Below, piece after piece: positions 26,301 to 64,000 of a DNA stretch of 64,000 bases. Within the stretch, counting starts at the first letter, position 1; each line of letters starts with the position of its first letter. The DNA lies in contig OZ024744.1 in the NCBI GenBank assembly GCA_964016885.1, positions 131,936,001 through 132,000,000 on the forward strand. The letters are read 5' to 3'. Source of the DNA: Eledone cirrhosa. Lineage: Eukaryota. The position numbers and the translations under genes are program-made. The notes beneath the pieces were generated by a model that saw only the letters and a list, made by a program, of their open reading frames with translations, was not told the origin of the DNA and did no database searches.

Positions 26301-28580
26301 GGTAAGTTAAGTTGGGGGTAAGTTAAGTTGGGGGTAAGTTAAGTTGGGGTTAAGTTAAGTTAGGGTTAAGTTAAGTTGGGGTTGAGTTAAGTTGGGGTTA
26401 AGTTAAGTTGCGGTTAAGTTAAGTTGGGGTTATGTTAAGTTGGGGTTAAGTTAAATTGGGGTTAAGTTAAGTTGGGGTTAAGTTAAGTTGGGGTTAAGTT
26501 AAGTTGGGGTTAAGTTAGATTGTGGTTAAGTTAAGTTGGGGTTAAGTTAAGTTGGGGTTAAGTTAAGTTGGGGTTAAGTTAAGGCGGGGTTAAGTTGAGT
26601 TGGTGTTAAGTTAAGTTGGGGTTAAGTTAAGTTGGGGTTGAGTTAATTTGGGGTTAACTTAAGTTGGGGGTACTTAAGTTGGGTTTAAGTTAAGTGGGGT
26701 TAAGTTAAGTTGGGGTTAAGTTAAGTTGGGGTTAAGTTAAGTTGGGGTTAAGTTAGGTTGTGGTTAAGTTAAGTTGGGGGTAAGTTAAGTTGGGGGTAAG
26801 TTAAGTTCGGGTTAATTTAAGTTGGGTCTAATTAAGTTGGGGTTAAGTTAAGTTGGGGTTAAGTTAAGTTGGGGTTGAGTTAATTTGGGGTTAACTTAAG
26901 TTGGGGGTACTTAAGTTGGGTTTAAGTTAAGTTGGGGGTAAGTTAAGTTGGGGGTAAGTTAAGTTGGGGTTAATTTAAGTTGGGTCAAATTAAGTTGGGG
27001 TTAAGTTAAGTTGGGGTTAAGTTAAGTTAGGGTTAAATTAAGTTGGGGTTAATTTAAGTTGGGGTTAAATTAAGTTGGCGCTAAGTTAATTTGTGGTTAA
27101 GTTAAGTTGGGGTTAAGTTAAGTTGGGATTAAGTTAAGTTGGGGTTGAGTTAAGTTGGGGTTGAGTTAATTTAGGGTTAAGTTAAGTTGGGGTTAAGTTA
27201 AGTTGGGTTTAAGTTAAGTTGGGGTTAAATTAAGTTGGGGTTAAATTAAGTTGGGGTTAAGTTAGGTTGGGGGTAAGTTAAGTTGGGGGCAAGTTAAGTT
27301 GGAGTTAAGTTAAGTTGGGGTTAAATTAAGTTGGGGTTAAGTTAAGTTGGTGTTAAGTTAAGTTGGGGTTTATTTAAGTTGGGGTTAATTAAGTTGGGGT
27401 TAAGGTAAGTTGGGTTTAAGTTAAGTTGGGGTTAATTTAAGTTGGGGTTGAGTTAAGTTGGGGTTAAGTTAAGTTGGGTTTATATTAAGTTGGGGTTAAG
27501 TTAAGTTGGGGTTAAGTTAAGTTGGGGTTCAGTTAAGTTGCGGTTAAGTTAAGTTGGGGTAAAGTTAAGTTGGTGTTAAGTTAAGTTGGGGTTAAGTTAA
27601 GTTGGTGTTAAGTTAAGTTGGGGCTAAGTTAAGTTGGGGCTGAGTTAAGTTGGGGTTAAGTTAAGTTGGGGTTAAGTTAAGTTGGGGTTTAGTTAAGTTG
27701 GGGTTCAGTTAAGTTGGGGTTAAGTTAAGTTTGGGTTAAGTTGGAGTTAAATTAATTTGGGGTTAAGTTAAGTTGGGGTTTAGTTTAGTTGGGGTTAAAT
27801 TAAGTTGGGGTTAATTTAAGTTGGGGTTAAGTTAAGTTGCGGGTAATTTAAGTTGGGGTTAAGTTAAGTTGGGGGTAAGTTAAGTTGGGGGTAAGTTAAG
27901 TTGGGGGTTAGTTAAGTTGGGGTTAAATTAAGTTAGGGTTAAGTTAAGTTGGGGTTGAGTTAAGTTGGGGTTAAGTTAAGTTGGGGTTATGTTAAGTTGG
28001 GGTTAAGTTAAGTTGGGGTTAAGTTAAATTGGGGTTAAGTTAAGTTGGGGTTAAGTTAAGTTGGGGTTAAGTTAAGTTGGGGTTAAGTTAGATTGTGGTT
28101 AAGTTAAGTTGGGGTTAAGTTAAGTTGGGGTTAAGTTGGGGTTAAGTTAAGTTAGGGTTAAGTTAAGTTGGGGTTGAGTTAAGTTGGGGTTAAGTTAAGT
28201 GGTGGTTATGTTAAGTTGGGGTTAAGTTAAGTTGGGGTTAATTTAAATTGGGGTTAAGTTAACTTTGTGGTTAAGTTAAGTTGGGGTTAAGTTAAGTTGG
28301 GGTTAAGTTAAGTTGGGGTTGAGTTAAGTTGGGGTTGAGTGAAGTTGGGGTTAAGTTAAGTTGGGGTTAAGCTAAGTTGGCGTTAAGTTAAGTTGGGGTT
28401 AAGTTAAGTTAGGGTTAAGTTAAGTTGGGGTTCAGTTAAGTTGCGGTTAAGTTAAGTTGGGGTAAAGTTAAGTTGGTGTTAATTAAGTTGGGGTTAAGTT
28501 AAGTTGGTGTTAAGTTAAGTTGGGGCTAAGTTAAGTTGGGGTTGAGTTAAGTTGGGGTTAAGTTAAGTTGGGGTTATGTT
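20350..28580 (+). repeat. Three-copy higher-order repeat of about 2.7-3.0 kb; third copy cut by the inversion
   Basis: GTTCGGG (C at 21073, 24066, 26808); GGAGTTAAGATGG (22897, 25890); late TATG marker at 22808, 25801 and 28575. Confidence 0.9.
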
Positions 28581-31500
28581 AACTTAACCCCAACTTAACT
28601 TATCCCCAACTTAACTTAACCCCAACTTAACTTAAACCCAACTTAACTTAACCCCAACTTAAACTATCCCCAACTTAACTTATCCCCAACTTAACTTAAC
28701 CCCAACTTAACTTAACCCCAACTTAACTTAACCCCAACTTAATTTAACCCCAACTTAACTTAACCTCAACTTAACTTAACCCCAACTTAACTTAACCCCA
28801 ACTTAACTTAACCCCAACTTAAATTAGCCCCAACTTAACTTAACCCCAACTTAAATTAACCCCAACTTAACTTAACCCCAACTTAACTTAACCCCGACTT
28901 AAATTAACCCCAACTTAACTTAACCCCAACTTAACTTAACCCCAACTTAACTTAACCACAAATTAACTTAACCCCAACTTAACTTAACCCCAACTTAACT
29001 TAACCCCAACTTAACTTAACCCCAACTTAACTTAAACCTAACTTGACTTAACCCCAACTTAACCCCAACTTAACTTGACCCCAACTTAACTTAACCCCAA
29101 CTTAACTCAACCCCAACTTAACTTAACCCCAACTTCACTCAGCCCCAACTTAACTCAGCCCCAACTTAACTTAGCCCCAACTTAACTTAACACCAACTTA
29201 ACTTAACCCCAACTTAACTTAACCCCAACTTAACTTAACCCCAACTTAACTCAACCCCAACTTAACTGAACCCCAACTTAACTTAACCCCAACTTAATAT
29301 AACCCCAACTTAACTTAACCCCAACTTAACTCAACCCCAACTTAAATTAACCCCAACTTAACTTAACCCCAACTTAACTTAACCCCAACTTAATTAACCC
29401 CAACTTAAATTAACCCCAACTTAACTTAACACCAACTTAACGTAACCCCAACTTAACTTAACCCCAACTTAACTTAAACCTAACTTAACTTAACCCCAAC
29501 TTAACCCCAACTTAACTTGACCCCAACTTAACTTAACCCCAACTTAACTCAACCCCAACTTAACTTAACCCCAACTTAACTCAGCCCCAACTTAACTCAG
29601 CCCCAACTTAACTTAGCCCCAACTTAACTTAACACCAACTTAACTTAACCCCAACTTAACTTAACCCCAACTTAACTTAACCCCAACTTAACTTATCCCC
29701 AACTTAACTGAACCCCAACTTAACTGAACCCCAACTTAAATTAACCCCAACTTAACTTAACCCCAACTTAACTTAACCCCAACTTAACTCAACACCAACT
29801 TAACTCAACCCCAACTTAACTCAACCCCAATTTAACTCAACCCCAACTTAACTCAACCCCAACTTAACTTAACCCCAACTTAACTGAACCCTAACTTAAC
29901 TTAACCCCGACTTAACTTAACCCCGACTTAACTTAACCCCAACTTAACTTAACCCCAACTTAACTTAACCCCAACTTAACTTAACCCCAACTTAATTTAA
30001 CCCTATCTTAACCCCAACTTAACTTAACCCCAACTTAAATGAACCCCAACTTAAATTAACCCCAACTTAAATAAACCCCAACTTAACTTAACCCCAACTT
30101 AACTTAACCCCAACTTAACTTAACCCCAACTTAACTCAGCCCCAACTTAACTTAGCCCCAACTTAACTTAACCCCAACTTAACTTAACCCCAACTTAACT
30201 TAACCCCAACTTAACTTAACCCCAACTTAACTTAACCCCAACTTAACTTAAACCCAACTTAACTTAACCCCAACTTAAATTATCCCCAACTTAACTTATC
30301 CCCAACTTAACTTAACCCCAACTTAACTTAACCCCAACTTAACTTAACCCCAACTTAATTTAACCCCAACTTAACTTAACCTCAACTTAACTTAACCCCA
30401 ACTTAACTTAACCCCATCTTAACTTAACCCCAACTTAACTTAACCCCAACTTAACTTAACCCCAACTTAAATTAACCCCAACTTAACTTAACCCCAACTT
30501 AACTTAACCCCGACTTAACTTAACCCCAACTTAACTTAACCCCAACTTAACTTAACCCCAACTTAATCCCAACTTAACTTGACCCCAACTTAACTTAACC
30601 CCAACTTAACTCAACCCCAACTTAACTTAACCCCAACTTAACTCAGCCCCAACTTAACTCAGCCCCAACTTAACTTAGCCCCAACTTAACTTAACACCAA
30701 CTTAACTTAACCCCACCTTAACTTAACCCCAACTTAACTTAACCCCAACTTAACTTATCCCCAACTTAACTGAACCCCAACTTAACTTAACCCCAACTTA
30801 ATATAACCCCAACTTAACTTAACCCCAACTTAACTCAACCCCAACTTAAATTAACCCCAACTTAACTTAACCCCAACTTAACTTAACCCCAACTTAATTA
30901 ACCCCAACTTAAATTAACCCCAACTTAACTTAACACCAACTTAACGTAACCCCAACTTAATTTAACCCCAACTTAAATTAACCCCAACTTAACTTGCCCC
31001 CAACTTAACTTACCCCCAACGTAACTTAACCCCAACTTAATTTAACCCCAACTTAATTTAACCCCAACTTAACTTAACCCCAAATTAACTCAACCCCAAC
31101 TTAACTCAACCCCAACTTAACTTAACCCCAACTTAAATTAACCCCAACTTAACTTAACCACAAATTAACTTAGCCCCAACTTAAATTAACCCCAAGTTAA
31201 CTCAACCACAACTTAACTTAACCCCGACCTAACTTAACCCCAACTTAACTTAACCCCAACTTAACTTAACCCCAACTTCACTCAACCCCAACTTAACTCA
31301 ACCCCAACTTAACCCCAACTTAACTTAACCCCAACTTAAATTAACCACAAAGTTAACTTAACCCCAATTTAAATTAACCCCAACTTAACTTAACCCCAAC
31401 TTAACATAACCACCACTTAATTAACCCCAACTTAACTCAACCCCAACTTAACTTAACCCTAACTTAACTTAACCCCAACTTAACCGCAACTTAACTTAAC

Positions 31501-31605: not shown

Positions 31606-31778
31606 GGGCTTAAGTTAAGTTGGGGCTAAGTTAAGTTGGGGTTAAGTCAAGTTGGAAGTTGTGGTTGAGTGAAGTTGGGGTTAAGTTAAGTTGGGGTTGA
31701 GTGAAGTTGGGGTTAAGTTAAGTTGGGGTTGAGTTACGTTGGGGTTGAGTGAAGTTGGGGTTAAGTTAAGTTGGGGTT
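31606..31778 (+). repeat. Short inverted island (about 11 monomers, G-rich) inside the C-rich block
   Basis: Begins GGGCTTAAG after CCCCGACTTA, carries three TTGAGTGAAG variants, and ends at GGGGTT|AACCCC (31773-31784). Confidence 0.95.
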
Positions 31779-34700
31779 AACCCCAACTTAACTTAACCCC
31801 AACTTAACTTAACCCCAACTTAACTTAACCCCAACATAACTTAACCCCAACTTAAATTAACCCCAACTTAACTTAAACTCAACTTAACTAACCAACTTAA
31901 CTTAACCCCAACTTAACTTAACCCCAACTTAACTTAACCCCAACTTAACTTAACCCCAACTTAACTTAACCCCAACTTAACTTAACCCCAACTTAAATTA
32001 ACCCCAACTTAACTTAACCCCAACTTAACTTAACCCCGACTTAACTTAACCCCAACTTAACTTAACCCCAACTTAACTTAGCCCCAACTTAACTTAGCCC
32101 CAACTTAACTTAGCCCCAACTTAACTTAACCCCAACTTAACATAACCGCACCTTAACTTAACCTCAACTTAACTTAACTGCAACTTAACTTAACCCCAAC
32201 TTAACTTAACCCCAACTTAACTCAACACCAACTTAACACAACCCCAACTTAACTCAACCCCAATTTAACTCAACCCCAAGTTAACTCAACCCCAACTTAA
32301 CTTAACCCCAACTTAACTGAACCCTAACTTAACTTAACCCCGACTTAAATTAAGCCCAACTTAACTTAACCCCAACTTAACTCAGCCCCAACTTAACTTA
32401 GCCCTAACTTAACTTAACCCCAACTTAACTTAACCCCAACTTAATTAACCCCAACTTAAATTAACCCCAACTTAACTTAACACCAACTTAACGTAACCCC
32501 ATCTTAAATAAACCCCAACTTAAATTAACCCCAACTTAACTTAACCCCAACTTAACTTAACCCCAACTTAACTCAGCCCCAACTTAACTTAGCCCCAACT
32601 TAACTTAACCCCAACTTAACTTAACCCCAACTTAACTTAACCCCAACTTAACTTATCCCCAACTTAACTTAACCCCAACTTAACTTAAACCCAACTTAAC
32701 TTAACCCCAACTTAAACTATCCCCAACTTAACTTATCCCCAACTTAACTTAACCCCAACTTAACTTAACCCCAACTTAACTTAACCCCAACTTAATTTAA
32801 CCCCAACTTAACTTAACCTCAACTTAACTTAACCCCAACTTAACTTAACCCCAACTTAACTTAACCCCAACTTAAATTAGCCCCAACTTAACTTAACCCC
32901 AACTTAAATTAACCCCAACTTAACTTAACCCCAACTTAACTTAACCCCGACTTAAATTAACCCCAACTTAACTTAACCCCAACTTAACTTAACCCCAACT
33001 TAACTTAACCACAAATTAACTTAACCCCAACTTAACTTAACCCCAACTTAACTTAACCCCAACTTAACTTAACCCCAACTTAACTTAACCCCAACTTAAC
33101 TTAAACCTAACTTAACTTAACCCCAACTTAACCCCAACTTAACTTGACCCCAACTTAACTTAACCCCAACTTAACTCAACCCCAACTTAACTTAACCCCA
33201 ACTTCACTCAGCCCCAACTTAACTCAGCCCCAACTTAACTTAGAGCCAACTTAACTTAACACCAACTTAACTTAACCCCAACTTAACTTAACCCCAACTT
33301 AACTCAACCCCAACTTAAATTAACCCCAACTTAACTTAGCCCCAACTTAACTTAACACCAACTTAACTTAACCCCACCTTAACTTAACCCCAACTTAACT
33401 TAACCCCAACTTAACTTATCCCCAACTTAACTGAACCCCAACTTAACTTAGTCCCAACTTAACTTAGCCCCAACTTAACTTAACCCCAACTTAACTTAAC
33501 CCCAACTTAACTTAACCCCAACTTAACTTATCCCCAACTTAACTTAACCCCAACTTAACTTAAAGCCAACTTAACTTAACCCCAACTTAAATTATCCCCA
33601 ACTTAACTTATCCCCAACTTAACTTAACCCCAACTTAACTTAACCCCAACTTAACTTAACCCCAACTTAATTTAACCCCAACTTAACTTAACCTCAACTT
33701 AACTTAACCCCAACTTAAATTAACCCCAACTTAACTTAACCCCAACTTAACTTAGCCCCAACTTAACTTAACCCCAACTTAAATTAACCCCAACTTAACT
33801 TAACCCCAACTTAACTTAACCCCGACTTAACTTAACCCCAACTTAACTTAACCCCAACTTAACTTAACCCCAACTTAACTTAACCACAAATTAACTTAAC
33901 CCCAACTTAACTTAACCCCAATTTAACTTAACCCCAACTTAACTTAACCCCAACTTAACTTAACCCCAACTTAACTTAAACCTAACTTAACTTAACCCCA
34001 ACTTAACCCCAACTTAACTTGACCCCAACTTAACTTAACCCCAACTTAACTCAACCCCGACTTAACTTAACCCCAACTTAACTCAGCCCCAACTTAATTC
34101 AGCCCCAACTTAACTTAGCCCCAACTTAACTTAACACCAACTTAACTTAACCCCAACTTAACTTAACCCCAACTTAACTTAGCCCCAACTTAACTTATCC
34201 CCAACTTAACTGAACCCCAACTTAACTCAACCACAAATTAACTTAACCCCAACTTAACTTAACCCCAACTTAACTTAACCCCAACTTAACTTAACCCCAA
34301 CTTAACTTAACCCCAACTTAACTTAAACCTAACTTAACTTAACCCCAACTTAATCCCAACTTAACTTGACCCCAACTTAACTCAACCCCAACTTAACTCA
34401 ACCCCAACTTAACTTAACCCCAACTTAACTCAGCCCCAACTTAACTCAGCCCCAACTTAACTTAGCCACAACTTAACTTAACACCAACTTAACTTAACCC
34501 CAACTTAACTTAACCCCAACTTAACTTAACCCCAACTTAAGTTAACCTCCACTTAACTTAACCCCAACTTAACTTAACCCCAACTTAATTTAACCCCAAC
34601 TTAACTTAACCCCAACTTAATTTAACCCCAACTTAACTTAACCCCAACTTAAATTAACCCCAACTTAATTAGACCCAACTTAAATAAACCCCAACTTAAC

Positions 34701-51342: not shown

Positions 51343-51542
51343 NNNNNNNNNNNNNNNNNNNNNNNNNNNNNNNNNNNNNNNNNNNNNNNNNNNNNNNNNN
51401 NNNNNNNNNNNNNNNNNNNNNNNNNNNNNNNNNNNNNNNNNNNNNNNNNNNNNNNNNNNNNNNNNNNNNNNNNNNNNNNNNNNNNNNNNNNNNNNNNNNN
51501 NNNNNNNNNNNNNNNNNNNNNNNNNNNNNNNNNNNNNNNNNN
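51343..51542. other. Assembly/scaffold gap, 200 N
   Basis: Run of exactly 200 N. The round number suggests a placeholder of unknown true length. Confidence 0.99.
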
Positions 51543-52062
51543 AACCCCAACTTAACTTAACCCCAACTTCACTCAACCCCAACTTAACTCAACCCCAACT
51601 TAACTTAACCCCAACTTAACTTAACCCTAACTTAACTTAACCCCGACTTAAACTTAACCCCAACTTAACTCAAACTTAACTTAACTTAACCCCAAGTTAA
51701 CTTAACCACAACTTAACTCAACCCCAACTTAACTTAACCTCCCACTTAACTTAGACCCGATTTAACTTAACCCCAACTTAGCTTACCCCGAACTTAACTT
51801 AACCCGAACTTAAATTAACCCCAACTTAACTTAACACCAACTTAACGTAACCCCAACTTAACTTAACCCCAACTTAACTCAACCCCAACTTAACTCAACC
51901 CCAACTTAACTTAACCCCAACTTAACTTAACCCCAAGTTAACTTAACCTCAACTTAACTTAACCCCAACTTAACTTAACCCCAACTTAATTAACCCCAAC
52001 TTAATTTAACCTCAACTTAACTTAACCCCAACTTAACTTAACCCCAACTTAACTTAACCCCA
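51543..52062 (-). repeat. C-rich satellite segment; probably an enlarged inverted island whose left junction lies in the gap
   Basis: Starts with the island-type variant order CTTCACTC, CTCAAC, CCCTAAC, CCCCGAC and ends at CCCCAAAGTCGGAG (52058-52071). Confidence 0.9.
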
Positions 52063-54687
52063 AAGTCGGAGTTAGGTTAAGTTGGGGTTAAGTTAAGTTA
52101 GGCTTAACTTAAGTTGGGGTTAAGTTAAGTTGGGGGTAAGTTAATTTGGGGTTAAGTTAAGTTGGTGTTAAGTTGGGGTTAAGTTAAGTTGGGGTTAAGT
52201 TGGGGTTAAGTTAAGTGGTGGTTATGTTAAGTTGGGGTTAACTTAAGTTGGGGTTAATTTAAATTGGGGTTAAGTTAACTTTGTGGTTAAGTTAAGTTGG
52301 GGTTAAGTTAAGTTGGGGTTAAATTAAGTTGGGGTTGAGTGAAGTTGGGGTTAAGTTAAGTTGGGGTTAACTTAAGTTGGGTTTAAGTTAAGTTGCGGTT
52401 AAGTTAAGTTGGGGTTAAGTTAAGTTGGGGTTAAGTTAAGTCGGGGTTAATTTAAGTTGGGGTTGAGTTAAGTTGAGGTTAATTTAAGTTGAGGTTATGT
52501 TAAGTTGGGGTTAATTTAAGTTGGGGTTAAGTTAAATTGGGGTTAAGTTAAGTTGGGGTTAATTTAAGTTGGGATTAAGTTCAGTTGGGGTTAAATTAAG
52601 TTGGGGTTAAGTTAAGCTGGGGTTAAATTAAGTTGGGGTTAAGTTAAGTTGGGGTTAAGTTAAGTTGGGGTTAAGTTAAGTTAGGGTTAATTTAAGTTGG
52701 GGTTATGTTAAGTTGGGGTTAAGTTAAGTTGGGGTTAAGTCGAGTTGGGGTTAAGTTAAGTTGGGGTTAGTTAAGTTGAGTTTAAGTTAAGTTGGGGTTA
52801 ATTTAAGTTGGGGTTAAGTTAAGTTGGGGTTCAGTTAAGTTGGGGTTAAGTTAAGTTGGGGTTAAGTTAAGTTGGTTTAAGTTAAGTTGGGGTTAGGTTA
52901 AGTTGGGGATAAGTTAAGTTGGGGATAAGCTAAGTTGGGGTTAAGTTAAGTTGGGTTTAAGTTAAGTTGGGGTTAAGTTAAGTTAGGCTTAACTTAAGTT
53001 GGGGTTAAGTTAAGTTGGGGGTAAATTAAGTTGGGGGTAAGTTAAGTTGGGGTTAAGTTAAGTTGGGTTTAAGTTAAGTGGTGGTTATGTTAAGTTGGGG
53101 TTAAGTTAAGTTGGGGTTAAATTAACTTGGGGTTAAGTTATGTTGGGTGTAAGTTAAGTTGGGGTTGAGTGAAGTTGGGGTTAAGTTAAGTTGGGGTTAA
53201 GTTAAGTTAGGGTTAATTTAAGTTGGGGTTATGTTAAGTTGGGGTTAAGTTAAGTTGGGGTTAAGTAGAGTTGGGGTTAAGTTAAGTTGGGGTTAAGTTA
53301 AGTTGGTGTTAAGTTGGGGTTAAGTTAAGTTGGGGTTAAGTTAAGTCGGGGTTAAGTTAAGTTGGGGTTGAGTTAAGTTGGGGTTAATTTAAGTTGAGGT
53401 TATGTTAAGTTGGGGTTAATTTAAGTTGGGGTTAATTTAAGTTGGGGTTAAGTTAAGTTGGGGTTAAGTTGAGGTTAAGTTAAGTTGTGGTTAAGTTAAG
53501 TTGGGGCTAAGTTAAGTTGGGGCTAAGTTAAGTTGGGGCTAAGTTAAGTTGGGGTTAAGTTAAGTTGGGGTTAAGTTAAGTTGGGTTTAATTTAAGTTGG
53601 GGTCGACTTAAGTTGGGGTTAAGTTGAGTTGGGGTTAAATTAAGTTGGGGTTAATTTAAGTTGGGGCTAAGTTAAGTTGGGGCTGAGTTAAGTTGGGGTT
53701 AAGTTAAGTTGGGGTTAAGTTAAGTTGGGGTTAAGTTAATTTTGGGTTAAGTTAAGTTGTGGTTCAGTTAAGTTGGGGTTAAGTTAAGTTTGGGTTAATT
53801 TGGGGTTAAATTAAGTTGGGGTTAAGTTAAGTTGGGGTTAAGTTAAGTTGGGGTTAAGTTAAGTTGGGGATAATTTAAGTTGGGGTTAAGTTAAGTCGGG
53901 GTTAAGTTAAGTCGGTGTTAAGTTAAGTTAGGGTTAAGTTAAGTTGGGGTTAAGTTAAGTTGGCTTTAAGTTAAGCTGGGGTTAAGTTAAGTTGGGGTTA
54001 AATTAAGTTTTGGTTAAGTTAAGTTGGGGTTAGGTTAAGTTTGGGTTAGGTTAAGTTGGGGTTAAATTAAGTTGGGGTTAAGTTAAGTTGGGGTTAAGGT
54101 AAGTTGGGGTTAGGTTAAGTTGGGGATAAGTTAAGTTGGGGATAATTTAAGTTGGGGTTAAGTTAAGTTGGGTTTAAGTTAAGCTGGGGTTAATTTAAGT
54201 TGGGGTTAAATTAAGTTGGGGTTAAGTTAAGTTGGGGTTAAGTTAAGTTTGGGTTAGGTTAAGTTGGGGATTAGTTAAGTTGGGGATAAGTTAAGTTGGG
54301 GTTAAGTTAAGTTGGGTTTAAGTTAAGTTGTGGTTAAGTTAAGTTGGGGTTAAGTTAAGTTGGGGGTTAAGTTAAGTTGGGGTTAGTTAAGTTTAGTTTA
54401 AGTTAAGTTGGGGTTAATTTAAGTTGGGGTTAAGTTAAGTTGGGGTTCAGTTAAGTTGGGGATAAGTCAAGTTGGGGTTAAGTTAAGTTGGGGTTAAGTT
54501 AAGTTGGGGTTAGGTTAAGTTGGGGATAAGTTAAGTTGGGGATAAGCTAAGTTGGGGTTAAGTTAAGTTGGGTTTAAGTTAAGTTGGGGTTAAGTTAAGT
54601 TGGGGTTAAATTAAGTTGGAGATAAGTTAAGCTGGGGTTAAATTAAGTTGGGGTTAAGTTAAGTTGGGGTTAGGTTAAGTTGGGGTT
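52063..54687 (+). repeat. 16-bp satellite array, G-rich on +
   Basis: Monomer periodicity; rich in GGGGATAAG and TTAGGTTAAG variants. Confidence 0.97.
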
Positions 54688-54950
54688 AACCCCAACTTAA
54701 CTTAACCCCAACTTAACTTAGCCCCAACTTCACTCAACCCCAACTTAACTTAACCCCAACTTAAGTTAACCCCAACTTAACTTAACCCTAACTTAACTTA
54801 ACCCCGACTTAACTTAACCCCGACTTAACTTAACCCCAACTTAACTTAACCCCAACTTAACTTAACCCCAACTTAACTTAATCCCAACTTGACTTAACCC
54901 CAACTTAACTCACACCCAACTTAACTTACCCCCAACTTAACTTAACCCCA
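54688..54950 (-). repeat. Inverted island, 263 bp
   Basis: GGGGTT|AACCCC at 54682-54693; ends at CCCCAAAATCGGAG (54946-54959). Confidence 0.96.
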
Positions 54951-57646
54951 AAATCGGAGTTACGTTAAGTTGGGGTTAAGTTAAGTTAGGCTTAACTTAA
55001 GTTGGGCTTAAGTTAAGTTGGGGGTAAGTTAAGTTGGGGGTAAGTTAAGTTGGGGTTAATTTAAGTTGGGGTTAAGTTAAGTGGTGGTTATGTTAAGTTG
55101 GGGTTAAGTTAAGTTGGGGTTAAATTAAGTTGGGGTTAAGTTAAGTTGGGTGTAAGTTAAGTTGGGGTTGAGTGAAGTTGGGGTTAAGTTAAGTTGGGGT
55201 TAAGTAGAGTTGGGGTTAAGTTAATTGGGGTTAAGTTGGTGTTAAGTTGGGGTTAAGTTAAGTTGGGGTTAAGTTGGGGTTAAGTTAAGTGGTGGTTATG
55301 TTAAGTTGGGGTTAACTTAAGTTGGGGTTAATTTAAATTGGGGTTAAGTTAACTTTGTGGTTAAGTTAAGTTGGGGTTAAGTTAAGTTGGGGTTAAGTTA
55401 AGTTGGGGTTGAGGGAAGTTGGGGTTAAGTTAAGTTGGGGTTAACTTAAGTTGGGTTTAAGTTAAGTTGCGGTTAAGTTAAGTTGGGGTTAAGTTAAGTT
55501 GGGGTTAAGTTAAGTCGGGGTTAAGTTAAGTTGGGGTTGAGTTAAGTTGGGGTTAATTTAAGTTGAGGTTATGTTAAGTTGGGGTTAATTTAAGTTGGGG
55601 TTAAGTTAAGTTGGGGTTAAGTTAAGTTGGGGTTAATTTAAGTTGGGGTTAAGTTCAGTTGGGGTTAATTTAAGTTGGGGTTAAGTTAAGTTGGGTTTAA
55701 GTTAAGTTGGGGTTAAATTAAGTTGGGGTTAAATTAAGTTGGGGTTAAGTTAAGTTGGGGTTAGGTTAAGTTGGGGATAAGTTAAGTTGGGGATAAGCTA
55801 AGTTGGGGTTAAGTTAAGTTGGGTTTAAGTTAAGTTGGGGTTAAGTTAAGTCGGGGTTATGTTAAGTCGGTGTTAAGTTAAGTTAGGGTTAAGTTAAGTT
55901 GGGGTTAAGTTAAGTTGGGGTTGAGTTAAGTTGGGGTTGAGTTAAATTGGGGTTGAGTTAATTTGGGGTTAAGTTAAGTTGGGGTTAAGTTAAGTTGGGG
56001 TTGAGTTAAGTTGGGGCTACTTCAAGTTGGGGCTAAGTTAAGTTGGGGCTGAGTTAAGTTGGGTGTACGTTAAGTTGGGGTTGACTGAAGTTGGGGTTAA
56101 GTTAAGTTGGGGTTAAGTTAAGTTAGGGTTAATTTAAGTTGGGGTTATGTTAAGTTGGGGTTAAGTTAAGTTGGGGTTAAGTAGAGTTGGGGTTAATTTA
56201 AGTTGGGGTTAAGTTAAGTTGGTGTTAAGTTGGGGTTAATTTAAGTGGTGGTTATGTTAAGTTCGGGTTAAGTTAAGTTGGGGTTAATTTAAATTGGGGT
56301 TAAGTTAACTTTGTGGTTAAGTTAAGTTGGAGTTAAGTTAAGTTGGAGTTAAGTTAAGTTGGGGTTGAGTGAAGTTGGGGTTAAGTTAAGTTGGGGTTAA
56401 CTTAAGTTGGGTTTGAGTTAAGTTGGGGTTAAGTTAAGTTGGGGTTTAATTAAGTTGGGGTTGAGTTAAGTTGGGGTTGACTTAAGTTGGGCTTAAGTTA
56501 AGTTGGGGTTAAGTTAAGATGTGGTTAAGTTAAGTTGGGGTTAAGTTAAATTGGGGTTAAATTAAGTTGGGGTTAAGTTAAGTTGGGGGTAAGGTAAGTT
56601 GGTGGTAAGTTAAGTTGGGGGTAAGTTAAGATGGGGCTAAGTTAAGTTGGGGTTAAGTTAATTTGGGGTTAAGTTAAGTTAGGGTTAAGTTAAGTTGGGG
56701 TTGACTTATGTTGGGGTTAAGTTAAGTTGGGGTTATGTTAAGTTGGGTTTAAGTTAAGTTGGGGTTAAGTTAAGTTGGGGTTAAGTTAAGTTGCGGTTAA
56801 GTTAAGTTGGGGTTAAGTTAAGTTGGGGATAATTTAAGTTGGGGTTAAGTTAAGTCGGGGTTAAGTTAAGTCGGTGTTAAGTTAAGTTAGGGTTAAGTTA
56901 AGTTGGGGTTAAGTTAAGTTGGCTTTAAGTTAAGCTGGGGTTAAGTTAAGTTGGGGTTAAATTAAGTTTTGGTTAAGTTAAGTTGGGGTTAGGTTAAGTT
57001 TGGGTTAGGTTAAGTTGGGGTTAAATTAAGTTGGGGTTAAGTTAAGTTGGGGTTAAGGTACGTTGGGGTTAGGTTAAGTTGGGGATAAGTTAAGTTGGGG
57101 ATAATTTAAGTTGGGGTTAAGTTAAGTTGGGTTTAAGTTAAGCTGGGGTTAATTTAAGTTGGGGTTAAATTAAGTTGGGGTTAAGTTAAGTTGGGGTTAA
57201 GTTAAGTTTGGGTTAGGTTAAGTTGGGGATTAGTTAAGTTGGGGATAAGTTAAGTTGGGGTTAAGTTAAGTTGGGTTTAAGTTAAGTTGTGGTTAAGTTA
57301 AGTTGGGGTTAAGTTAAGTTGGGGGTTAAGTTAAGTTGGGGTTAGTTAAGTTTAGTTTAAGTTAAGTTGGGGTTAATTTAAGTTGGGGTTAAGTTAAGTT
57401 GGGGTTCAGTTAAGTTGGGGATAAGTCAAGTTGGGGTTAAGTTAAGTTGGGGTTAAGTTAAGTTGGGGTTAGGTTAAGTTGGGGATAAGTTAAGTTGGGG
57501 ATAAGCTAAGTTGGGGTTAAGTTAAGTTGGGTTTAAGTTAAGTTGGGGTTAAGTTAAGTTGGGGTTAAATTAAGTTGGAGATAAGTTAAGCTGGGGTTAA
57601 ATTAAGTTGGGGTTAAGTTAAGTTGGGGTTAGGTTAAGTTGGGGTT
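54951..57646 (+). repeat. 16-bp satellite array, G-rich on +
   Basis: Monomer periodicity between two islands. Confidence 0.97.
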
Positions 57647-57877
57647 AACCCCAACTTAACTTAACCCCAACTTAACTTAGCCCCAACTTCACTCAACCCC
57701 AACTTAACTTAACCCTAACTTAACTTAACCCCGACTTAACTTAACCCCGACTTAACTTAACCCCAACTTAACTTAACCCCAACTTAACTTAACCCCAACT
57801 TAACTTAATCCCAACTTGACTTAACCCCAACTTAACTCACACCCAACTTAACTTACCCCCAACTTAACTTAACCCCA
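57647..57877 (-). repeat. Inverted island, 231 bp
   Basis: GGGGTT|AACCCC at 57641-57652; ends at CCCCAAAATCGGAG (57873-57886). Matches the 54688 island apart from two missing monomers (32 bp). Confidence 0.96.
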
Positions 57878-60800
57878 AAATCGGAGTTACGTTAAGTTGG
57901 GGTTAAGTTAAGTTAGGCTTAACTTAAGTTGGGCTTAAGTTAAGTTGGGGGTAAGTTAAGTTGGGGGTAAGTTAAGTTGGGGTTAATTTAAGTTGGGGTT
58001 AAGTTAAGTGGTGGTTATGTTAAGTTGGGGTTAAGTTAAGTTGGGGTTAAATTAAGTTGGGGTTAAGTTAAGTTGGGTGTAAGTTAAGTTGGGGTTGAGT
58101 GAAGTTGGGGTTAAGTTAAGTTGGGGTTAAGTAGAGTTGGGGTTAAGTTAATTGGGGTTAAGTTGGTGTTAAGTTGGGGTTAAGTTAAGTTGGGGTTAAG
58201 TTGGGGTTAAGTTAAGTGGTGGTTATGTTAAGTTGGGGTTAACTTAAGTTGGGGTTAATTTAAATTGGGGTTAAGTTAACTTTGTGGTTAAGTTAAGTTG
58301 GGGTTAAGTTAAGTTGGGGTTAAGTTAAGTTGGGGTTGAGGGAAGTTGGGGTTAAGTTAAGTTGGGGTTAACTTAAGTTGGGTTTAAGTTAAGTTGCGGT
58401 TAAGTTAAGTTGGGGTTAAGTTAAGTTGGGGTTAAGTTAAGTCGGGGTTAAGTTAAGTTGGGGTTGAGTTAAGTTGGGGTTAATTTAAGTTGAGGTTATG
58501 TTAAGTTGGGGTTAATTTAAGTTGGGGTTAAGTTAAGTTGGGGTTAAGTTAAGTTGGGGTTAATTTAAGTTGGGGTTAAGTTCAGTTGGGGTTAATTTAA
58601 GTTGGGGTTAAGTTAAGTTGGGTTTAAGTTAAGTTGGGGTTAAATTAAGTTGGGGTTAAATTAAGTTGGGGTTAAGTTAAGTTGGGGTTAGGTTAAGTTG
58701 GGGATAAGTTAAGTTGGGGATAAGCTAAGTTGGGGTTAAGTTAAGTTGGGTTTAAGTTAAGTTGGGGTTAAGTTAAGTCGGGGTTATGTTAAGTCGGTGT
58801 TAAGTTAAGTTAGGGTTAAGTTAAGTTGGGGTTAAGTTAAGTTGGGGTTGAGTTAAGTTGGGGTTGAGTTAAATTGGGGTTGAGTTAATTTGGGGTTAAG
58901 TTAAGTTGGGGTTAAGTTAAGTTGGGGTTGAGTTAAGTTGGGGCTACTTCAAGTTGGGGCTAAGTTAAGTTGGGGCTGAGTTAAGTTGGGTGTACGTTAA
59001 GTTGGGGTTGACTGAAGTTGGGGTTAAGTTAAGTTGGGGTTAAGTTAAGTTAGGGTTAATTTAAGTTGGGGTTATGTTAAGTTGGGGTTAAGTTAAGTTG
59101 GGGTTAAGTAGAGTTGGGGTTAATTTAAGTTGGGGTTAAGTTAAGTTGGTGTTAAGTTGGGGTTAATTTAAGTGGTGGTTATGTTAAGTTCGGGTTAAGT
59201 TAAGTTGGGGTTAATTTAAATTGGGGTTAAGTTAACTTTGTGGTTAAGTTAAGTTGGAGTTAAGTTAAGTTGGAGTTAAGTTAAGTTGGGGTTGAGTGAA
59301 GTTGGGGTTAAGTTAAGTTGGGGTTAACTTAAGTTGGGTTTGAGTTAAGTTGGGGTTAAGTTAAGTTGGGGTTTAATTAAGTTGGGGTTGAGTTAAGTTG
59401 GGGTTGACTTAAGTTGGGCTTAAGTTAAGTTGGGGTTAAGTTAAGATGTGGTTAAGTTAAGTTGGGGTTAAGTTAAATTGGGGTTAAATTAAGTTGGGGT
59501 TAAGTTAAGTTGGGGGTAAGGTAAGTTGGTGGTAAGTTAAGTTGGGGGTAAGTTAAGATGGGGCTAAGTTAAGTTGGGGTTAAGTTAATTTGGGGTTAAG
59601 TTAAGTTAGGGTTAAGTTAAGTTGGGGTTGACTTATGTTGGGGTTAAGTTAAGTTGGGGTTATGTTAAGTTGGGTTTAAGTTAAGTTGGGGTTAAGTTAA
59701 GTTGGGGTTAAGTTAAGTTGCGGTTAAGTTAAGTTGGGGTTAAGTTAAGTTGGGGTTAAGTTAAGTTGGGGTTAAGTTAAGTTGGGGTTAAGTTAAGTTG
59801 GGGTTAATTTAAGTTGGGGTTAAATTAAGTTGGGGTTAATTTAAGTTGGGGGTTAAGATAAGTTGGGGTTAAGTTAAGTTGGGGTTAAATTAAGTTGGGG
59901 TTAAGTTAAGTTGGGGTTAATTTAAGTTGGGGTTAAGTTAAGTTGGGGTTGAGTTAAGTTGGGGGTAAGTTAAGTTGGGGGTAAGTTAAGTTGGGTGTAA
60001 GTTAAGATGGGGTTAAGTTAAGTTGGGGTTAAGTTATTTTGGGGTTAAGTTAAGTTGGGGGTAAGTTAAGTTGGTGATAAGTTAAGTTGGGGGTAAGTTA
60101 AGTTGGGGTTAAGTTAAGTTGGGTTAAGTTGGGGTTAAGTTAAGTTAGGGTTAAGTTAAGTTGGGGTTGAGTTAAGTTGGGGTTAAGTTAAGAGGTGGTT
60201 ATGTTCAGTTGGGGTTAAGTTAAGTTGGGGTTAAGTTAAGTTGGGGTTAAGTTAAGTTGGGGTTAAGATAAGTTGGGGTTAAGTTAAGTTGGGGTTGAGT
60301 TAAGTTGGGGTTGAGTTAATTTGGGGTTAAGTTAAGTTGGGGTTAACTTAATTTGGGTTTAATTTAAGTTGGGGTTAAGTTAAGTTGGGGTTAAATTAAG
60401 TTGGGATTAAGTTAAGTTGGGTGTACGTTAAGTTGGGGTTGACTGAAGTTGGGGTTAAGTTAAGTTGGGGTTAAGTAGAGTTGGGGTTAATTTAAGTTGG
60501 GGTTAAGTTAAGTTGGTGTTAAGTTGGGGTTAAGTTAAGTTGGGGTTAAGTTGGGGTTAAGTTAAGTGGTGGTTATGTTAAGTTGGGGTTAAGTTAAGTT
60601 GGGGTTAATTTAAATTGGGGTTAAGTTAACTTTGTGGTTAAGTTAAGTTGGAGTTAAGTTAAGTTGGGGTTAAGTTAAGTTGGGGTTGAGTGAAGTTGGG
60701 GTTAATTTAAGTTGGGGTTCAGTTAAGTTGGGGTTAAGTTAAGTTGGGGTTGAGTTAAGTTGGGGTTAATTTAAGTTGAGGTTATTTTAAGTTGGGGTTA

Positions 60801-62814
60801 AGTTAAGTTGGGGTTAAGTTAAGTTGGGGTTAAGTTAAGTTGGGGTTAAGTTAAGTTGGGGTTAAGTTAAGTTGGGTTTAAGTTAAGTTGGGGTTAAATT
60901 AAGTTGGGGTTAAATTAAAGTGGGGTTAAGTTAAGTTGGGGGTAATTTAAGTTGGGGGTAAGTTAAGTTGGTGTTAAGTTAAGTTGGGGTTAAGTTAAGT
61001 TGGGGTTAAGTTAAGTTGGGTTTAAGTTAAGTTGGGACTAAGTTAAGTTAGGGCTAAGTTCAGTTGGGGTAAAGTTAAGTTGGTTTAAGTTAAGTTGGGG
61101 TTAGGTTAAGTTGGGGATAAGTTAAGTTGGGGATAAGCTAAGTTGGGGTTAAGTTAAGTTGGGTTTAAGTTAAGTTGGGGTTAAGTTAAGTTAGGCTTAA
61201 CTTAAGTTGGGGTTAAGTTAAGTTGGGGGTAAATTAAGTTGGGGGTAAGTTAAGTTGGGGTTAAGTTAAGTTGGGGTTAAGTTAAGTGGTGGTTATGTTA
61301 AGTTGGGGTTAAGTTAAGTTGGGGTTAAATTAAGTTGGGGTTCAGTTATGTTGGGTGTAAGTTAAGTTGGGGTTGAGTGAAGTTGGGGTTAAGTTAAGTT
61401 GGGGTTAAGTTAAGTTAGGGTTAATTTAAGTTGGGGTTATGTTAAGTTGGGGTTAAGTTAAGTTGGGGTTAAGTAGAGTTGGGGTTAAGTTAAGTTGGGG
61501 TTAAGTTAAGTTGGTGTTAAGTTGGGGTTAAGTTAAGTTGGGGTTAAGTTAAGTTGGGGTTGAGTGAAGTTGGGGTTAAGTTAAGTTGGGGTTAAATTAA
61601 GTTGGGGTTAACTTAAGTTGGGTTTAAGTTAAGTTGCGGTTAAGTTAAGTTGGGGTTAAGTTAAGTTGGGGTTAAGTTAAGTCGGGGTTAAGTTAAGTTG
61701 GGGTTGAGTTAAGTTGGGGTTATTTTAAGTTGAGGTTATGTTAAGTTGGGGTTAATTTAAGTTGGGGTTAAGTTAAGTTGGGGTTAATTTAAGTTGGGGT
61801 TAAGTTCAGTTGGGGTTAATTTAAGTTGGGGTTAAGTTAAGTTGGGTTTAAGTTAAGTTGGGGTTAAGTTAAGTTGGGGTTAAGTTAAGTTGGGTTTAAG
61901 TTAAGTTGGGGCTAAGTTAAGTTGGGTCTAATTTGAGTTGGGGTTAAGTTAAGTTGGGGTTAAGTTAAGTTGAGGTTAAATTAAGTTGGGGTTAATTAAG
62001 TTGGGGTTAAGTTAAGTTGGGGTTAAGTTAAGTTGAGGTTAAGTTAACTTGGGGTTAAGTTAAGTTGGGGTTAAGTTAAGTTGGGGTTGAGTTAAGTTGG
62101 GGTTGAGTTAAGTTGGGGTTAAGTTAAGTTGGGGTTAAGTTAAGTTGGGGTTAAGTTAAGTTGGGGTTAATTTAAGTTCGGGTTAAGTTAAGTTCGGGGT
62201 AAGCTAAGTTGGGGTTAAGTTAAATCGGGTCTAAGTTAAGTGGGAGGTTAAGTTAAGTTGGGGTTGAGTTAAGTTGTGGTTAAGTTAACTTGGGGTTAAG
62301 TTAAGTTTGAGTTAAGTTGGGGTTAAGTTGGGGTTAAGTTAAGTTGGGGTTAAGTTACGTTGGGGTTAAGTTAAGTTGGGGTTAAGTTGAGGTTAAGTTA
62401 AGTTGTGGTTAAGTTAAGTTGGGGCTAAGTTAAGTTGGGGCTAAGTTAAGTTGGGGTTAAGTTAAGTTGGGGTTAATTTAAGTTGGGGTTAGGTTAAGTT
62501 GGGGATAATTTAAGTTGGGGATAAGTTAAGTTGGGGTTAAGTTAAGTTGGGTTTAAGTTAAGCTGGGGTTAAGTTAAGTTGGGGTTAAATTAAGTTGGGG
62601 TTAAGTTAAGTTTGGGTTAGGTTAAGTTGGGGATAAGTTAAGTTGGGGATAAGTTAAGTTGGGGTTAAGTTAAGTTGGGTTTAAGTTAAGTTGGGGTTAA
62701 GTTAAGTTGGGGTTAAGTTAAGTTGGGGTTAAGTTAAGTTGCGGTTAGTTAAGTTGAGTTTAAGTTAATTTAAGTTGGGGTTAAGTTAAGTTGGGGTTAG
62801 GTTAAGTTGGGGTT
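57878..62814 (+). repeat. 16-bp satellite array, G-rich on +
   Basis: Monomer periodicity between islands. Confidence 0.97.
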
Positions 62815-63045
62815 AACACCAACTTAACTTAACCCCAACTTAACATAACCCCAACTTCACTCAACCCCAACTTAACTTAACCCCAACTTCACTCAACCCC
62901 AACTTAACTCAACCCCAACTTAACTTAACCCCAACTTAACTTAACCCCAACTTAACTTAACCCTAACTTAACTTAACCCCGACTTAACGTAAGCCCGACT
63001 TAACTTAACCCCAACTTAACTTACCCCCAACTTAACTTAACCCCA
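62815..63045 (-). repeat. Inverted island, 231 bp
   Basis: GGGGTT|AACACC at 62809-62820; two CTTCACTC variants; ends at CCCCAAAGTCGGAG (63041-63054). Confidence 0.96.
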
Positions 63046-63859
63046 AAGTCGGAGTTAAGTTGGGGTTAAGTTAAGTGGTGGTTATGTTAAGTTGGGGTTA
63101 AGTTAAGTTGGGGTTAAATTAAGTTGGGGTTAAGTTAAGTTGGGTGTAAGTTAAGTTGGGGTTGAGTGAAGTTGGGGTTCAGTTAAGTTGGGGTTAAGTA
63201 GAGTTGGGGTAAGTTAAGTTGGGGTTAAGTTAAGTTGGTGTTAAGTTGGGGTTAAGTTAAGTTGGGGTTAAGTTAAGTTGGGGTTGAGTGAAGTTGGGGT
63301 TAAGTTAAGTTGGGGTTAAATTAAGTTGGGGTTAACTTAAGTTGGGTTTAAGTTAAGTTGCGGTTAAGTTAAGTTGGGGTTAAGTTAAGTTGGGGTTAAG
63401 TTAAGTCGGGGTTAAGTGAAGTTGGGGTTGAGTTAAGTTGGGGTTATTTTAAGTTGAGGTTATGTTAAGTTGGGGTTAATTTAAGTTGGGGTTAAGTTAA
63501 GTTGGGGTTAATTTAAGTTGGGGTTAAGTTCAGTTGGGGTTAATTTAAGTTGGGGTTAAGTTAAGTTGGGTTTAAGTTAAGTTGGGGTTAAGTTAAGTTG
63601 GGGTTAAGTTAAGTTGAGTTTAAGTTAAGTTGGGGCTAAGTTAAGTTGGGTCTAATTTGAGTTGGGGTTAAGTTAAGTTGGGGTTAAGTTAAGTTGAGGT
63701 TAAATTAAGTTGGGGTTAATTAAGTTGGGGTTAAGTTAAGTTGGGGTTAAGTTAAGTTGAGGTTAAGTTAACTTGGGGTTAAGTTAAGTTGGGGTTAAGT
63801 TAAGTTGGGGTTGAGTTAAGTTGGGGTTAAGTTAAGTTGGGGTTAGTTTAAGTGGGGTT
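63046..63859 (+). repeat. 16-bp satellite array, G-rich on +
   Basis: Monomer periodicity; homologous to about 61270-62100. Confidence 0.96.
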
Positions 63860-64000
63860 AACCCCAACTTAACTTAACCCCAACTTAACTTAACCCCAAC
63901 TTCACTCAACCCCAACTTAACTTAACCCCAACTTCACTCAACCCCAACTTAACTCAACCCCAACTTAACTTAACCCTAACTTAACTTAACCCCGACTTAA
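63860..64000 (-). repeat. Inverted island truncated by the window end
   Basis: GGGGTT|AACCCC at 63854-63865, followed by CTTCACTC x2, CCCTAAC and CCCCGAC as in the other islands. Confidence 0.9.

What the first reader, a model, noticed from the sequence alone, without database searches (positions are those of the whole stretch)
52040..64000. A recurrent inverted-island cassette with stereotyped junctions propagates inside the satellite
Seen: islands at 54688-54950, 57647-57877, 62815-63045, 63860-end and probably 51543-52062 are not independent inversions. Every visible left junction is a spacerless GGGGTT|AAC(C/A)CC, in three cases preceded by TTAGGTTAAG. Every visible right junction is CCCCAAA[G/A]TCGGAG (52058, 54946, 57873, 63041). 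The interiors share the variant order CTTCACTC ... CCCTAAC ... CCCCGAC. Inference: a single ancestral micro-inversion of about 11-16 monomers was amplified as part of kb-scale units, placing fold-back-capable palindrome pairs every 1-5 kb in an otherwise polar G/C-skewed array. These could extrude hairpins or cruciforms, or yield dsRNA if transcribed. Function is not shown.
Basis: partly seen in the sequence, partly recalled or inferred. Interest (0 to 1): 0.75.

Follow-up and report, generated by a model that had tools for sequence, protein, structure and literature searches.

The report
One satellite flip, copied 900 times
Short back-to-front patches in a 16-base repeat array are real and recur about 900 times on one chromosome; they likely descend from one old copying slip that was carried along as a passenger when the array duplicated itself, with no sign of selection on the junctions, though a few patches have likely swapped sequence with the oppositely oriented array.

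Summary
The islands belong to one family of at least 930 copies (703 exact matches plus 233 mapped) in an 8.3-Mb array of a 16-bp satellite on C28, in three regional subfamilies. All 278 islands examined share one right-junction register and a rare variant; most share rare flank and interior variants. Copies share kilobases of flank with variable ends, so they are passengers of segmental duplication, not a mobile cassette. Isolated substitutions hit junction cores as often as flanks (0.0019 vs 0.0016). A non-palindromic AT-rich insert is equally stereotyped, and about 3 Mb of the same array lacks islands. That argues against a selected junction. The event was not a clean 11-16-monomer inversion: phase arithmetic shows lost bases and the ancestor was likely 21-26 monomers. 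New here: the 51543 island holds 399 bp copied exactly, in reverse, from forward array 13 kb away (2 of 278 islands are such recombinants). Closest precedent: conserved inversion sites in Tribolium satellites. This scan already noted the same family in four neighbouring windows.

The parts
52063..64000 (+). G-rich forward array of the 16-bp satellite, start of an 806-kb gap-bounded contig that holds 205 islands
51543..52062 (-). Recombinant island (gamma subfamily): normal start and right junction, left junction lost in the gap
51651..52049 (-). 399-bp tract, exact reverse complement of forward array at C28:132,000,690 (13 kb downstream; the only exact forward copy in the two joined regions searched)
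54690..54950 (-). Island, 261 bp; left palindrome centre 54687/54688, right junction at 54946
57649..57877 (-). Island, 229 bp; tandem duplicate of the previous one, two monomers shorter
53811..56833 (+). About 3-kb unit that carries island 54690 and recurs 2,959/2,927 bp downstream with 5 differences
62817..63045 (-). Island, 229 bp, with a C-to-A change in the left palindrome
63858..64000 (-). Island, 201 bp in all (ends at 64058), second left-flank type
31606..31780 (+). Island of the alpha subfamily inside the C-rich block 28583-51342
28575..28590 (.). Single large-block orientation switch at the monomer's other TTAA; not an island junction and not a mirror copy
51343..51542 (.). Assembly gap (200 N); orientation across it is not established

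Best explanation
The islands are copies of one inverted segment that likely arose once, by a replication template switch at the monomer's own TTAA palindrome, and was then likely multiplied passively by the kilobase-scale duplications that turn over this satellite. Step 1 (inferred): a nascent strand switched to the opposite strand at TTAA, copied about 21-26 monomers of a neighbouring higher-order unit, and returned through one base of overlap. Step 2 (shown by shared variants): the island and its flanks were inherited as one haplotype that split into three regional subfamilies. Step 3 (shown): copies share 0.05 to over 3 kb of flank with variable ends, as expected from unequal exchange or segmental duplication. 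Step 4 (inferred): being inverted shields the island from same-strand exchange with the array, which makes it look more conserved than its flanks without selection. Step 5 (shown in 2 of 278 islands, mechanism inferred): islands occasionally pair with forward array and take up sequence from it in reverse.
For: One register in 281 of 281 C-to-G switches and in 245 of 247 G-to-C switches. The T-to-C variant at the right junction is in 278 of 278 islands vs 1.9% of background monomers; a rare flank variant is in 216 of 278 vs 0.8% expected; the interior marker is in 231 of 243 vs 5.4%. Island cores cluster apart from forward homologues (2 changes vs 21.7 shuffled; monophyly not rejected, p-AU 0.48). 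Shared flank with best partner: median 1,547 bp right and 1,254 bp left, n=216. Isolated substitution rates: cores 11/5,789, interior 42/31,076, flanks 95/60,952, p=0.39; p=0.28 and 0.76 at two other thresholds. A non-palindromic AT-rich insert is just as stereotyped: 51 of 55 copies enter at one site. No islands in 7 of 7 samples at 127.0-130.0 Mb, 4 of 4 at 133.4-134.2 Mb, or 9 of 9 on C2. Perfect arms are short (mostly 7-30 bp, maximum 43) and not shorter than chance.
Against: Counting all substitutions, cores differ less than average (29 of 571, p=0.006). This vanishes for isolated changes and cores equal the interior, but the core test rests on 8-12 events and assembly errors would dilute a signal. 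Selection on orientation rather than on sequence would not be seen by this test. The template-switch origin is not proved: the forward source motif lies at no fixed distance from either junction, and the pre-event haplotype was not found in the fetched sequence. About 1.7 Mb of one assembly was read (the window and 160 fetched stretches); no read-level check was made.
Confidence: 0.72

Rival explanations
1. Islands are drivers: their hairpins stall forks or are cut, and the repair amplifies island-bearing units or seeds larger inversions.
For: Predicted fold -125.1 kcal/mol for an island with flanks vs -21.1 for polar array. Two islands captured forward sequence in reverse. At C28:132,857,197 a long C-rich block ends in an island tail and right junction, so a crossover inside an island joined it to a larger inverted block. 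Islands spread through about 2.5 Mb at one per few kb.
Against: Recombinants are 2 of 278, and one sits at a contig end. Shared flanks end at variable distances, not at the island. Island-free parts of the array are also made of kb-scale duplicates (self-diagonals). Breakpoint clustering was not tested.
Confidence: 0.13
2. Islands are kept for a structural role (cruciform or loop sites for centromeric or heterochromatin proteins, or a dsRNA source), as proposed for Tribolium inversion sites.
For: Both junctions fold into hairpins in silico (-16.5 to -28.4 kcal/mol per 60 nt vs mean -3.1). The finding's contig interleaves two satellites (29% AT-rich repeat), as Tribolium (peri)centromeres do. 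The same two repeats meet at the midpoint of the 416-Mb contig C2.
Against: No excess conservation. 32 of 205 islands have lost the left palindrome to the AT-rich insert. Listings for the junction words start at C28, so lower-numbered contigs show no exact match, and the C2 array shows no switch.
Confidence: 0.08
3. Islands arose many times independently, because the monomer's internal TTAA sites favour fold-back.
For: The left junction sits on 4 bp of natural microhomology; two further switches use the other TTAA.
Against: The right junction has one base of overlap yet one register in 281 of 281, with linked rare variants on both sides.
Confidence: 0.03
4. Assembly or read-chimera artefact.
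For: One assembly only; the contig is bounded by gaps; the three runs that hold the stretch come from one sample, possibly the source.
Against: Hundreds of copies with nested variants in several gap-separated contigs and both orientations. Arms are not mirror copies. Three runs hold 0.69-0.77 of 26 sampled words. Copy number and the 124.6-Mb placement could still be off.
Confidence: 0.02

Closest known systems
Conserved inversion sites and macro-dyad symmetries of Tribolium madens TmSat1/TmSat2 (PMC13081366, passages read) and T. freemani TfSat01/TfSat03 (PMC12581902, passages read)
   Same: A few inversion-junction types copied hundreds to thousands of times; no foreign spacer at the junction; predicted hairpins; two satellites interleaved through stereotyped transition zones.
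   Different: Tribolium subarrays are kilobases long, tend to symmetry and occur on many chromosomes. Here the inverted piece is 134-523 bp, out-and-back, 7% of the contig, in a 16-bp monomer, and was seen on one chromosome only. Here junction conservation was compared with flanks and is not higher.
Small inverted triplications, DUP/IN/DUP (PMC13334657; abstract and sections 2.4 and 2.6 read); lead taken from note e1-10310859
   Same: Inverted piece of similar size (median 160 bp) with microhomology junctions, made by replication error.
   Different: Those are fresh single events in unique DNA and are eliminated from plasmids in E. coli and yeast. Flanking duplications and spacers cannot be shown here, and this event has persisted and multiplied.
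Human HSat3B5 (chr9) and beta-satellite arrays with over 200 inversion breakpoints (bioRxiv 10.1101/2021.07.12.452052, passages read)
   Same: Short-monomer satellite arrays with many strand switches.
   Different: The passages read do not say whether the breakpoints are copies of one junction.

Membership tests
Tribolium-type macro-dyad satellite | Conserved inversion sites in many copies, no foreign spacer | tested here: met
Tribolium-type macro-dyad satellite | Multi-kb inverted subarrays tending to symmetry | tested here: not met
   Islands 134-523 bp between forward spacers of median 2.0 kb
Tribolium-type macro-dyad satellite | Major and minor satellites interleaved with conserved transition zones | tested here: met
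   55 AT-rich inserts, 51 with one entry site
Tribolium-type macro-dyad satellite | Same inversion sites on several chromosomes | tested here: not met
   94 of 94 matches on C28; other listings show the first 100 only, all C28; higher-numbered contigs are not excluded
Tribolium-type macro-dyad satellite | (Peri)centromeric location | not testable with these tools
   No chromatin data
Small inverted triplication (template switch) | Microhomology at junctions | tested here: inconclusive
   4 bp at the left, 1 bp at the right (read from sequence)
Small inverted triplication (template switch) | Forward copies of the inverted piece on both sides at short distance | tested here: inconclusive
   Source motif persists forward throughout the array but at no fixed distance
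Balanced micro-inversion | Reverting the island restores monomer phase at both ends | tested here: not met
   The two junctions hold 10 bases between G-runs; intact monomers need 14, 19 or 24 (arithmetic on the junctions)
Mobile element (MITE-like cassette) | Fixed ends in unrelated flanks | tested here: not met
   Flanks shared over variable, kb-scale lengths

The most novel reading that the evidence does not exclude
The islands are a self-reinforcing architecture: once present, each is a standing strand-switch site that lets sequence move between the two orientations, seeds larger inversions and biases amplification toward island-bearing units, so one old slip now steers the evolution of a multi-megabase array.
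Probability: 0.13. Interest if true: 0.68.

Novelty: new variant of a known kind. Interest (0 to 1): 0.3.

Why it matters
Conserved inversion sites in satellites have been read as hints of function (PMC13081366 says so, and says such symmetries were documented only in Tribolium). This array offers a clean neutral counter-example with internal controls: equal mutation rates, an equally stereotyped non-palindromic junction, and island-free megabases. The islands also serve as lineage markers for how a satellite spreads, and the captured tracts record exchange between opposite orientations. No new mechanism or function is shown.

Tried and rejected
Search for the un-inverted ancestral haplotype in the fetched background (62,263 monomers): not found; the genome-wide version of this question stays open. 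Local fold-back from the left flank: suggested by alpha copies (15 of 30 have the source motif 25-44 monomers to the left) but not by beta or gamma, so not claimed. The pattern was too strict and was redone. Selection for interrupted palindromes: arm lengths not shorter than chance. Mirror symmetry at 28583: absent. Rfam on three loci: 0 matches. Literature: the monomer words were found in 0 papers; searches gave no closer precedent than those cited, judged from listings only; PMC10766183 (ODIRA) was seen in a listing only. Supplements were not read. Rows dropped: 60 of 340 short segments were forward spacers and were removed; two more 654-bp spacers stayed and were removed from then on. The tree used 31 of 43 distinct island cores and 34 of 107 forward cores, and no alpha islands, which lack the core. 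The organism was not identified.

Full report
Setting. The window is C28:131,936,001-132,000,000 of a 3.0-Gb assembly. It is all one 16-bp satellite. Sampling puts the array between about 127.0 and 135.3 Mb of a 136.5-Mb contig, with a second block at 124.599-124.691 Mb. The organism was not identified.

The right-junction 18-mer has 124 forward and 23 reverse exact matches in the genome and 0 for the reversed control. All 94 matches of its commoner form are on C28, in two blocks. The finding is the start of a gap-bounded contig (131,987,543-132,793,543) with 205 islands of 134-523 bp, forward spacers of median 2.0 kb (373-7,907 bp), and 29% of an unrelated AT-rich repeat of about 37 bp. All 205 end in the same right junction. 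On the left, 172 have the spacerless palindrome, 32 abut the AT-rich repeat and 1 runs into the gap.

The family is wider. A sister form of the right junction has 703 further exact matches and the left 24-mer has 763 forward matches (near-palindromic, so the strands are not additive). Only the first 100 places are listed in each, all on C28. With the 233 islands mapped in the two blocks above, the family has at least about 930 copies. In the fetched sequence analysed, 281 of 281 C-to-G switches share one register and 245 of 247 G-to-C switches share one; the two others (window 28583 and C28:132,859,243) use the monomer's second TTAA. There are three subfamilies: alpha (about 170-215 bp; 130.2-131.2, 133.2-133.35 and 134.5-135.0 Mb, and window 31606), beta (197-421 bp; 131.0-131.9 Mb) and gamma (the finding).

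Single origin. All 278 islands carry a T-to-C variant at the right junction (background 1.9%). 216 of 278 carry a rare variant within five flank monomers (0.8% expected). 231 of 243 carry the interior marker near the start (5.4%) and 238 of 278 a marker near the end (5.3%). In a tree of 31 island cores and 34 forward homologues the label changes twice, against 21.7 in shuffles, and monophyly is not rejected (p-AU 0.48), though support is low. Long beta and gamma islands share start, core and end, so the ancestor was likely 21-26 monomers and shorter forms are likely deletions (inference).

Origin. The left junction sits on the TTAA palindrome of the monomer; the right has one base of overlap. 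Reverting the island leaves 10 bases between G-runs where intact monomers need 14, 19 or 24, so this was not a balanced inversion (arithmetic). The island core still exists in forward orientation across the array. A template switch fits these facts; an inversion with end loss is not excluded, because the source motif lies at no fixed distance from the junctions and the ancestral haplotype was not found.

Propagation. In the window, a 3-kb unit with its island is duplicated in tandem with 5 differences. Across 216 islands, the flank shared with the best partner has a median of 1.5 kb right and 1.25 kb left, from about 50 bp to the 3-kb limit, and partners lie a median 78 kb apart. There are no fixed ends, so this is not a mobile cassette.

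Selection. On a spanning tree of distinct copies, all substitutions are fewer in cores and interior than in flanks (cores p=0.006). Flank differences come in clusters, as out-of-register exchange would give. Isolated substitutions are equal: cores 0.0019, interior 0.0014, flanks 0.0016 per site, p=0.39 on 119 edges, with like results at two other thresholds. The test has only 8-12 core events. Controls agree with it. The non-palindromic AT-rich insert enters at one site in 51 of 55 copies. No switch was seen in 7 of 7 samples from 127.0-130.0 Mb or 4 of 4 from 133.4-134.2 Mb, and the listing has no left junction between 124.69 and 130.25 Mb. The same 16-mer on C2 shows no switch in 9 of 9 samples.

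Structure. An island with flanks folds at -125.1 kcal/mol as single-stranded DNA, against -21.1 for polar array. Perfect arms at the left junction are mostly 7-30 bp and at most 43, against a chance median of 9. These are predictions; nothing here shows extrusion or transcription.

Exchange between orientations. The longest exact match between an island and forward array is normally about 84 bp (95th percentile 112). Two of 278 stand out. The window's 51543 island has 399 bp identical in reverse to C28:132,000,690, the only exact forward copy in the two joined regions searched. Its start and rare right flank match the island at 132,003,712, 3 kb from the donor. The island at 132,608,443 has 221 bp with 33 exact forward copies, one 1.5 kb away. 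The first lies at a contig end and needs read support. At 132,857,197 a C-rich block of at least 7 kb ends in an alpha island tail and right junction, which agrees with earlier scan notes that islands terminate larger inversions.

Artefact. Three runs of one sample hold 0.69-0.77 of 26 sampled words. They may be the source sample, so this is weak. The stronger argument is the nested variation over hundreds of copies in separate contigs, and the lack of mirror symmetry at junctions.

Comparison. Tribolium madens has inversion sites in thousands of copies at 98-99% identity, and T. freemani has six conserved types (passages). This array works like them at the junction level but fails the size, symmetry and multi-chromosome features, so it is a variant and not a member. 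Small inverted triplications are the closest model for the first event. Human HSat3B5 and beta satellites have over 200 breakpoints. The monomer was found in 0 papers. Four earlier notes of this scan describe the same family in neighbouring windows.

Verdict. A real, single-origin, passively amplified inverted island. Interest 0.3: a neat neutral control for a published functional hypothesis, plus two records of exchange between orientations, but no new mechanism.

Noticed in passing
L143-L151 (C2:209.196-209.81 Mb): The same 16-mer forms part of a composite unit of about 520 bp (about 270 bp of other sequence plus 9-18 monomers) at the midpoint of a 416-Mb contig, next to the AT-rich repeat. 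Possibly centromeric; not tested.
   Followed up: partly
L117:7581-7811 and C28:124,692,841: A 231-bp tract of the 16-mer sits in a dispersed element; the two copies align over 2.8 kb. It is followed by sequence like the C2 unit and a long inverted repeat, which fits a transposon origin of the satellite.
   Followed up: partly
C28:132,011,832 onward (L002-L099): 55 inserts of an AT-rich repeat of about 37 bp, 0.7-41 kb long, with stereotyped ends; 32 join an island directly. More matches lie at 128.56-128.83 Mb.
   Followed up: partly
L021-L033 (C28:124.57-124.69 Mb): Gamma islands in opposite orientation 7.3 Mb away, ending at a gap and joined to a related 32-bp satellite; a similar repeat appears at 135.35 Mb (judged by eye). 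A true inverted duplicate or a misplaced contig.
   Followed up: partly
window 28583 and L102:9243: Two large-block switches at the monomer's second TTAA, with different flanks, so likely independent events.
   Followed up: partly
L139 (C28:135.5 Mb): An unrelated 48-bp satellite fills this sample.
   Followed up: no
L036 near C28:124,723,564: Short interstitial run of telomere-like hexamer repeats.
   Followed up: no
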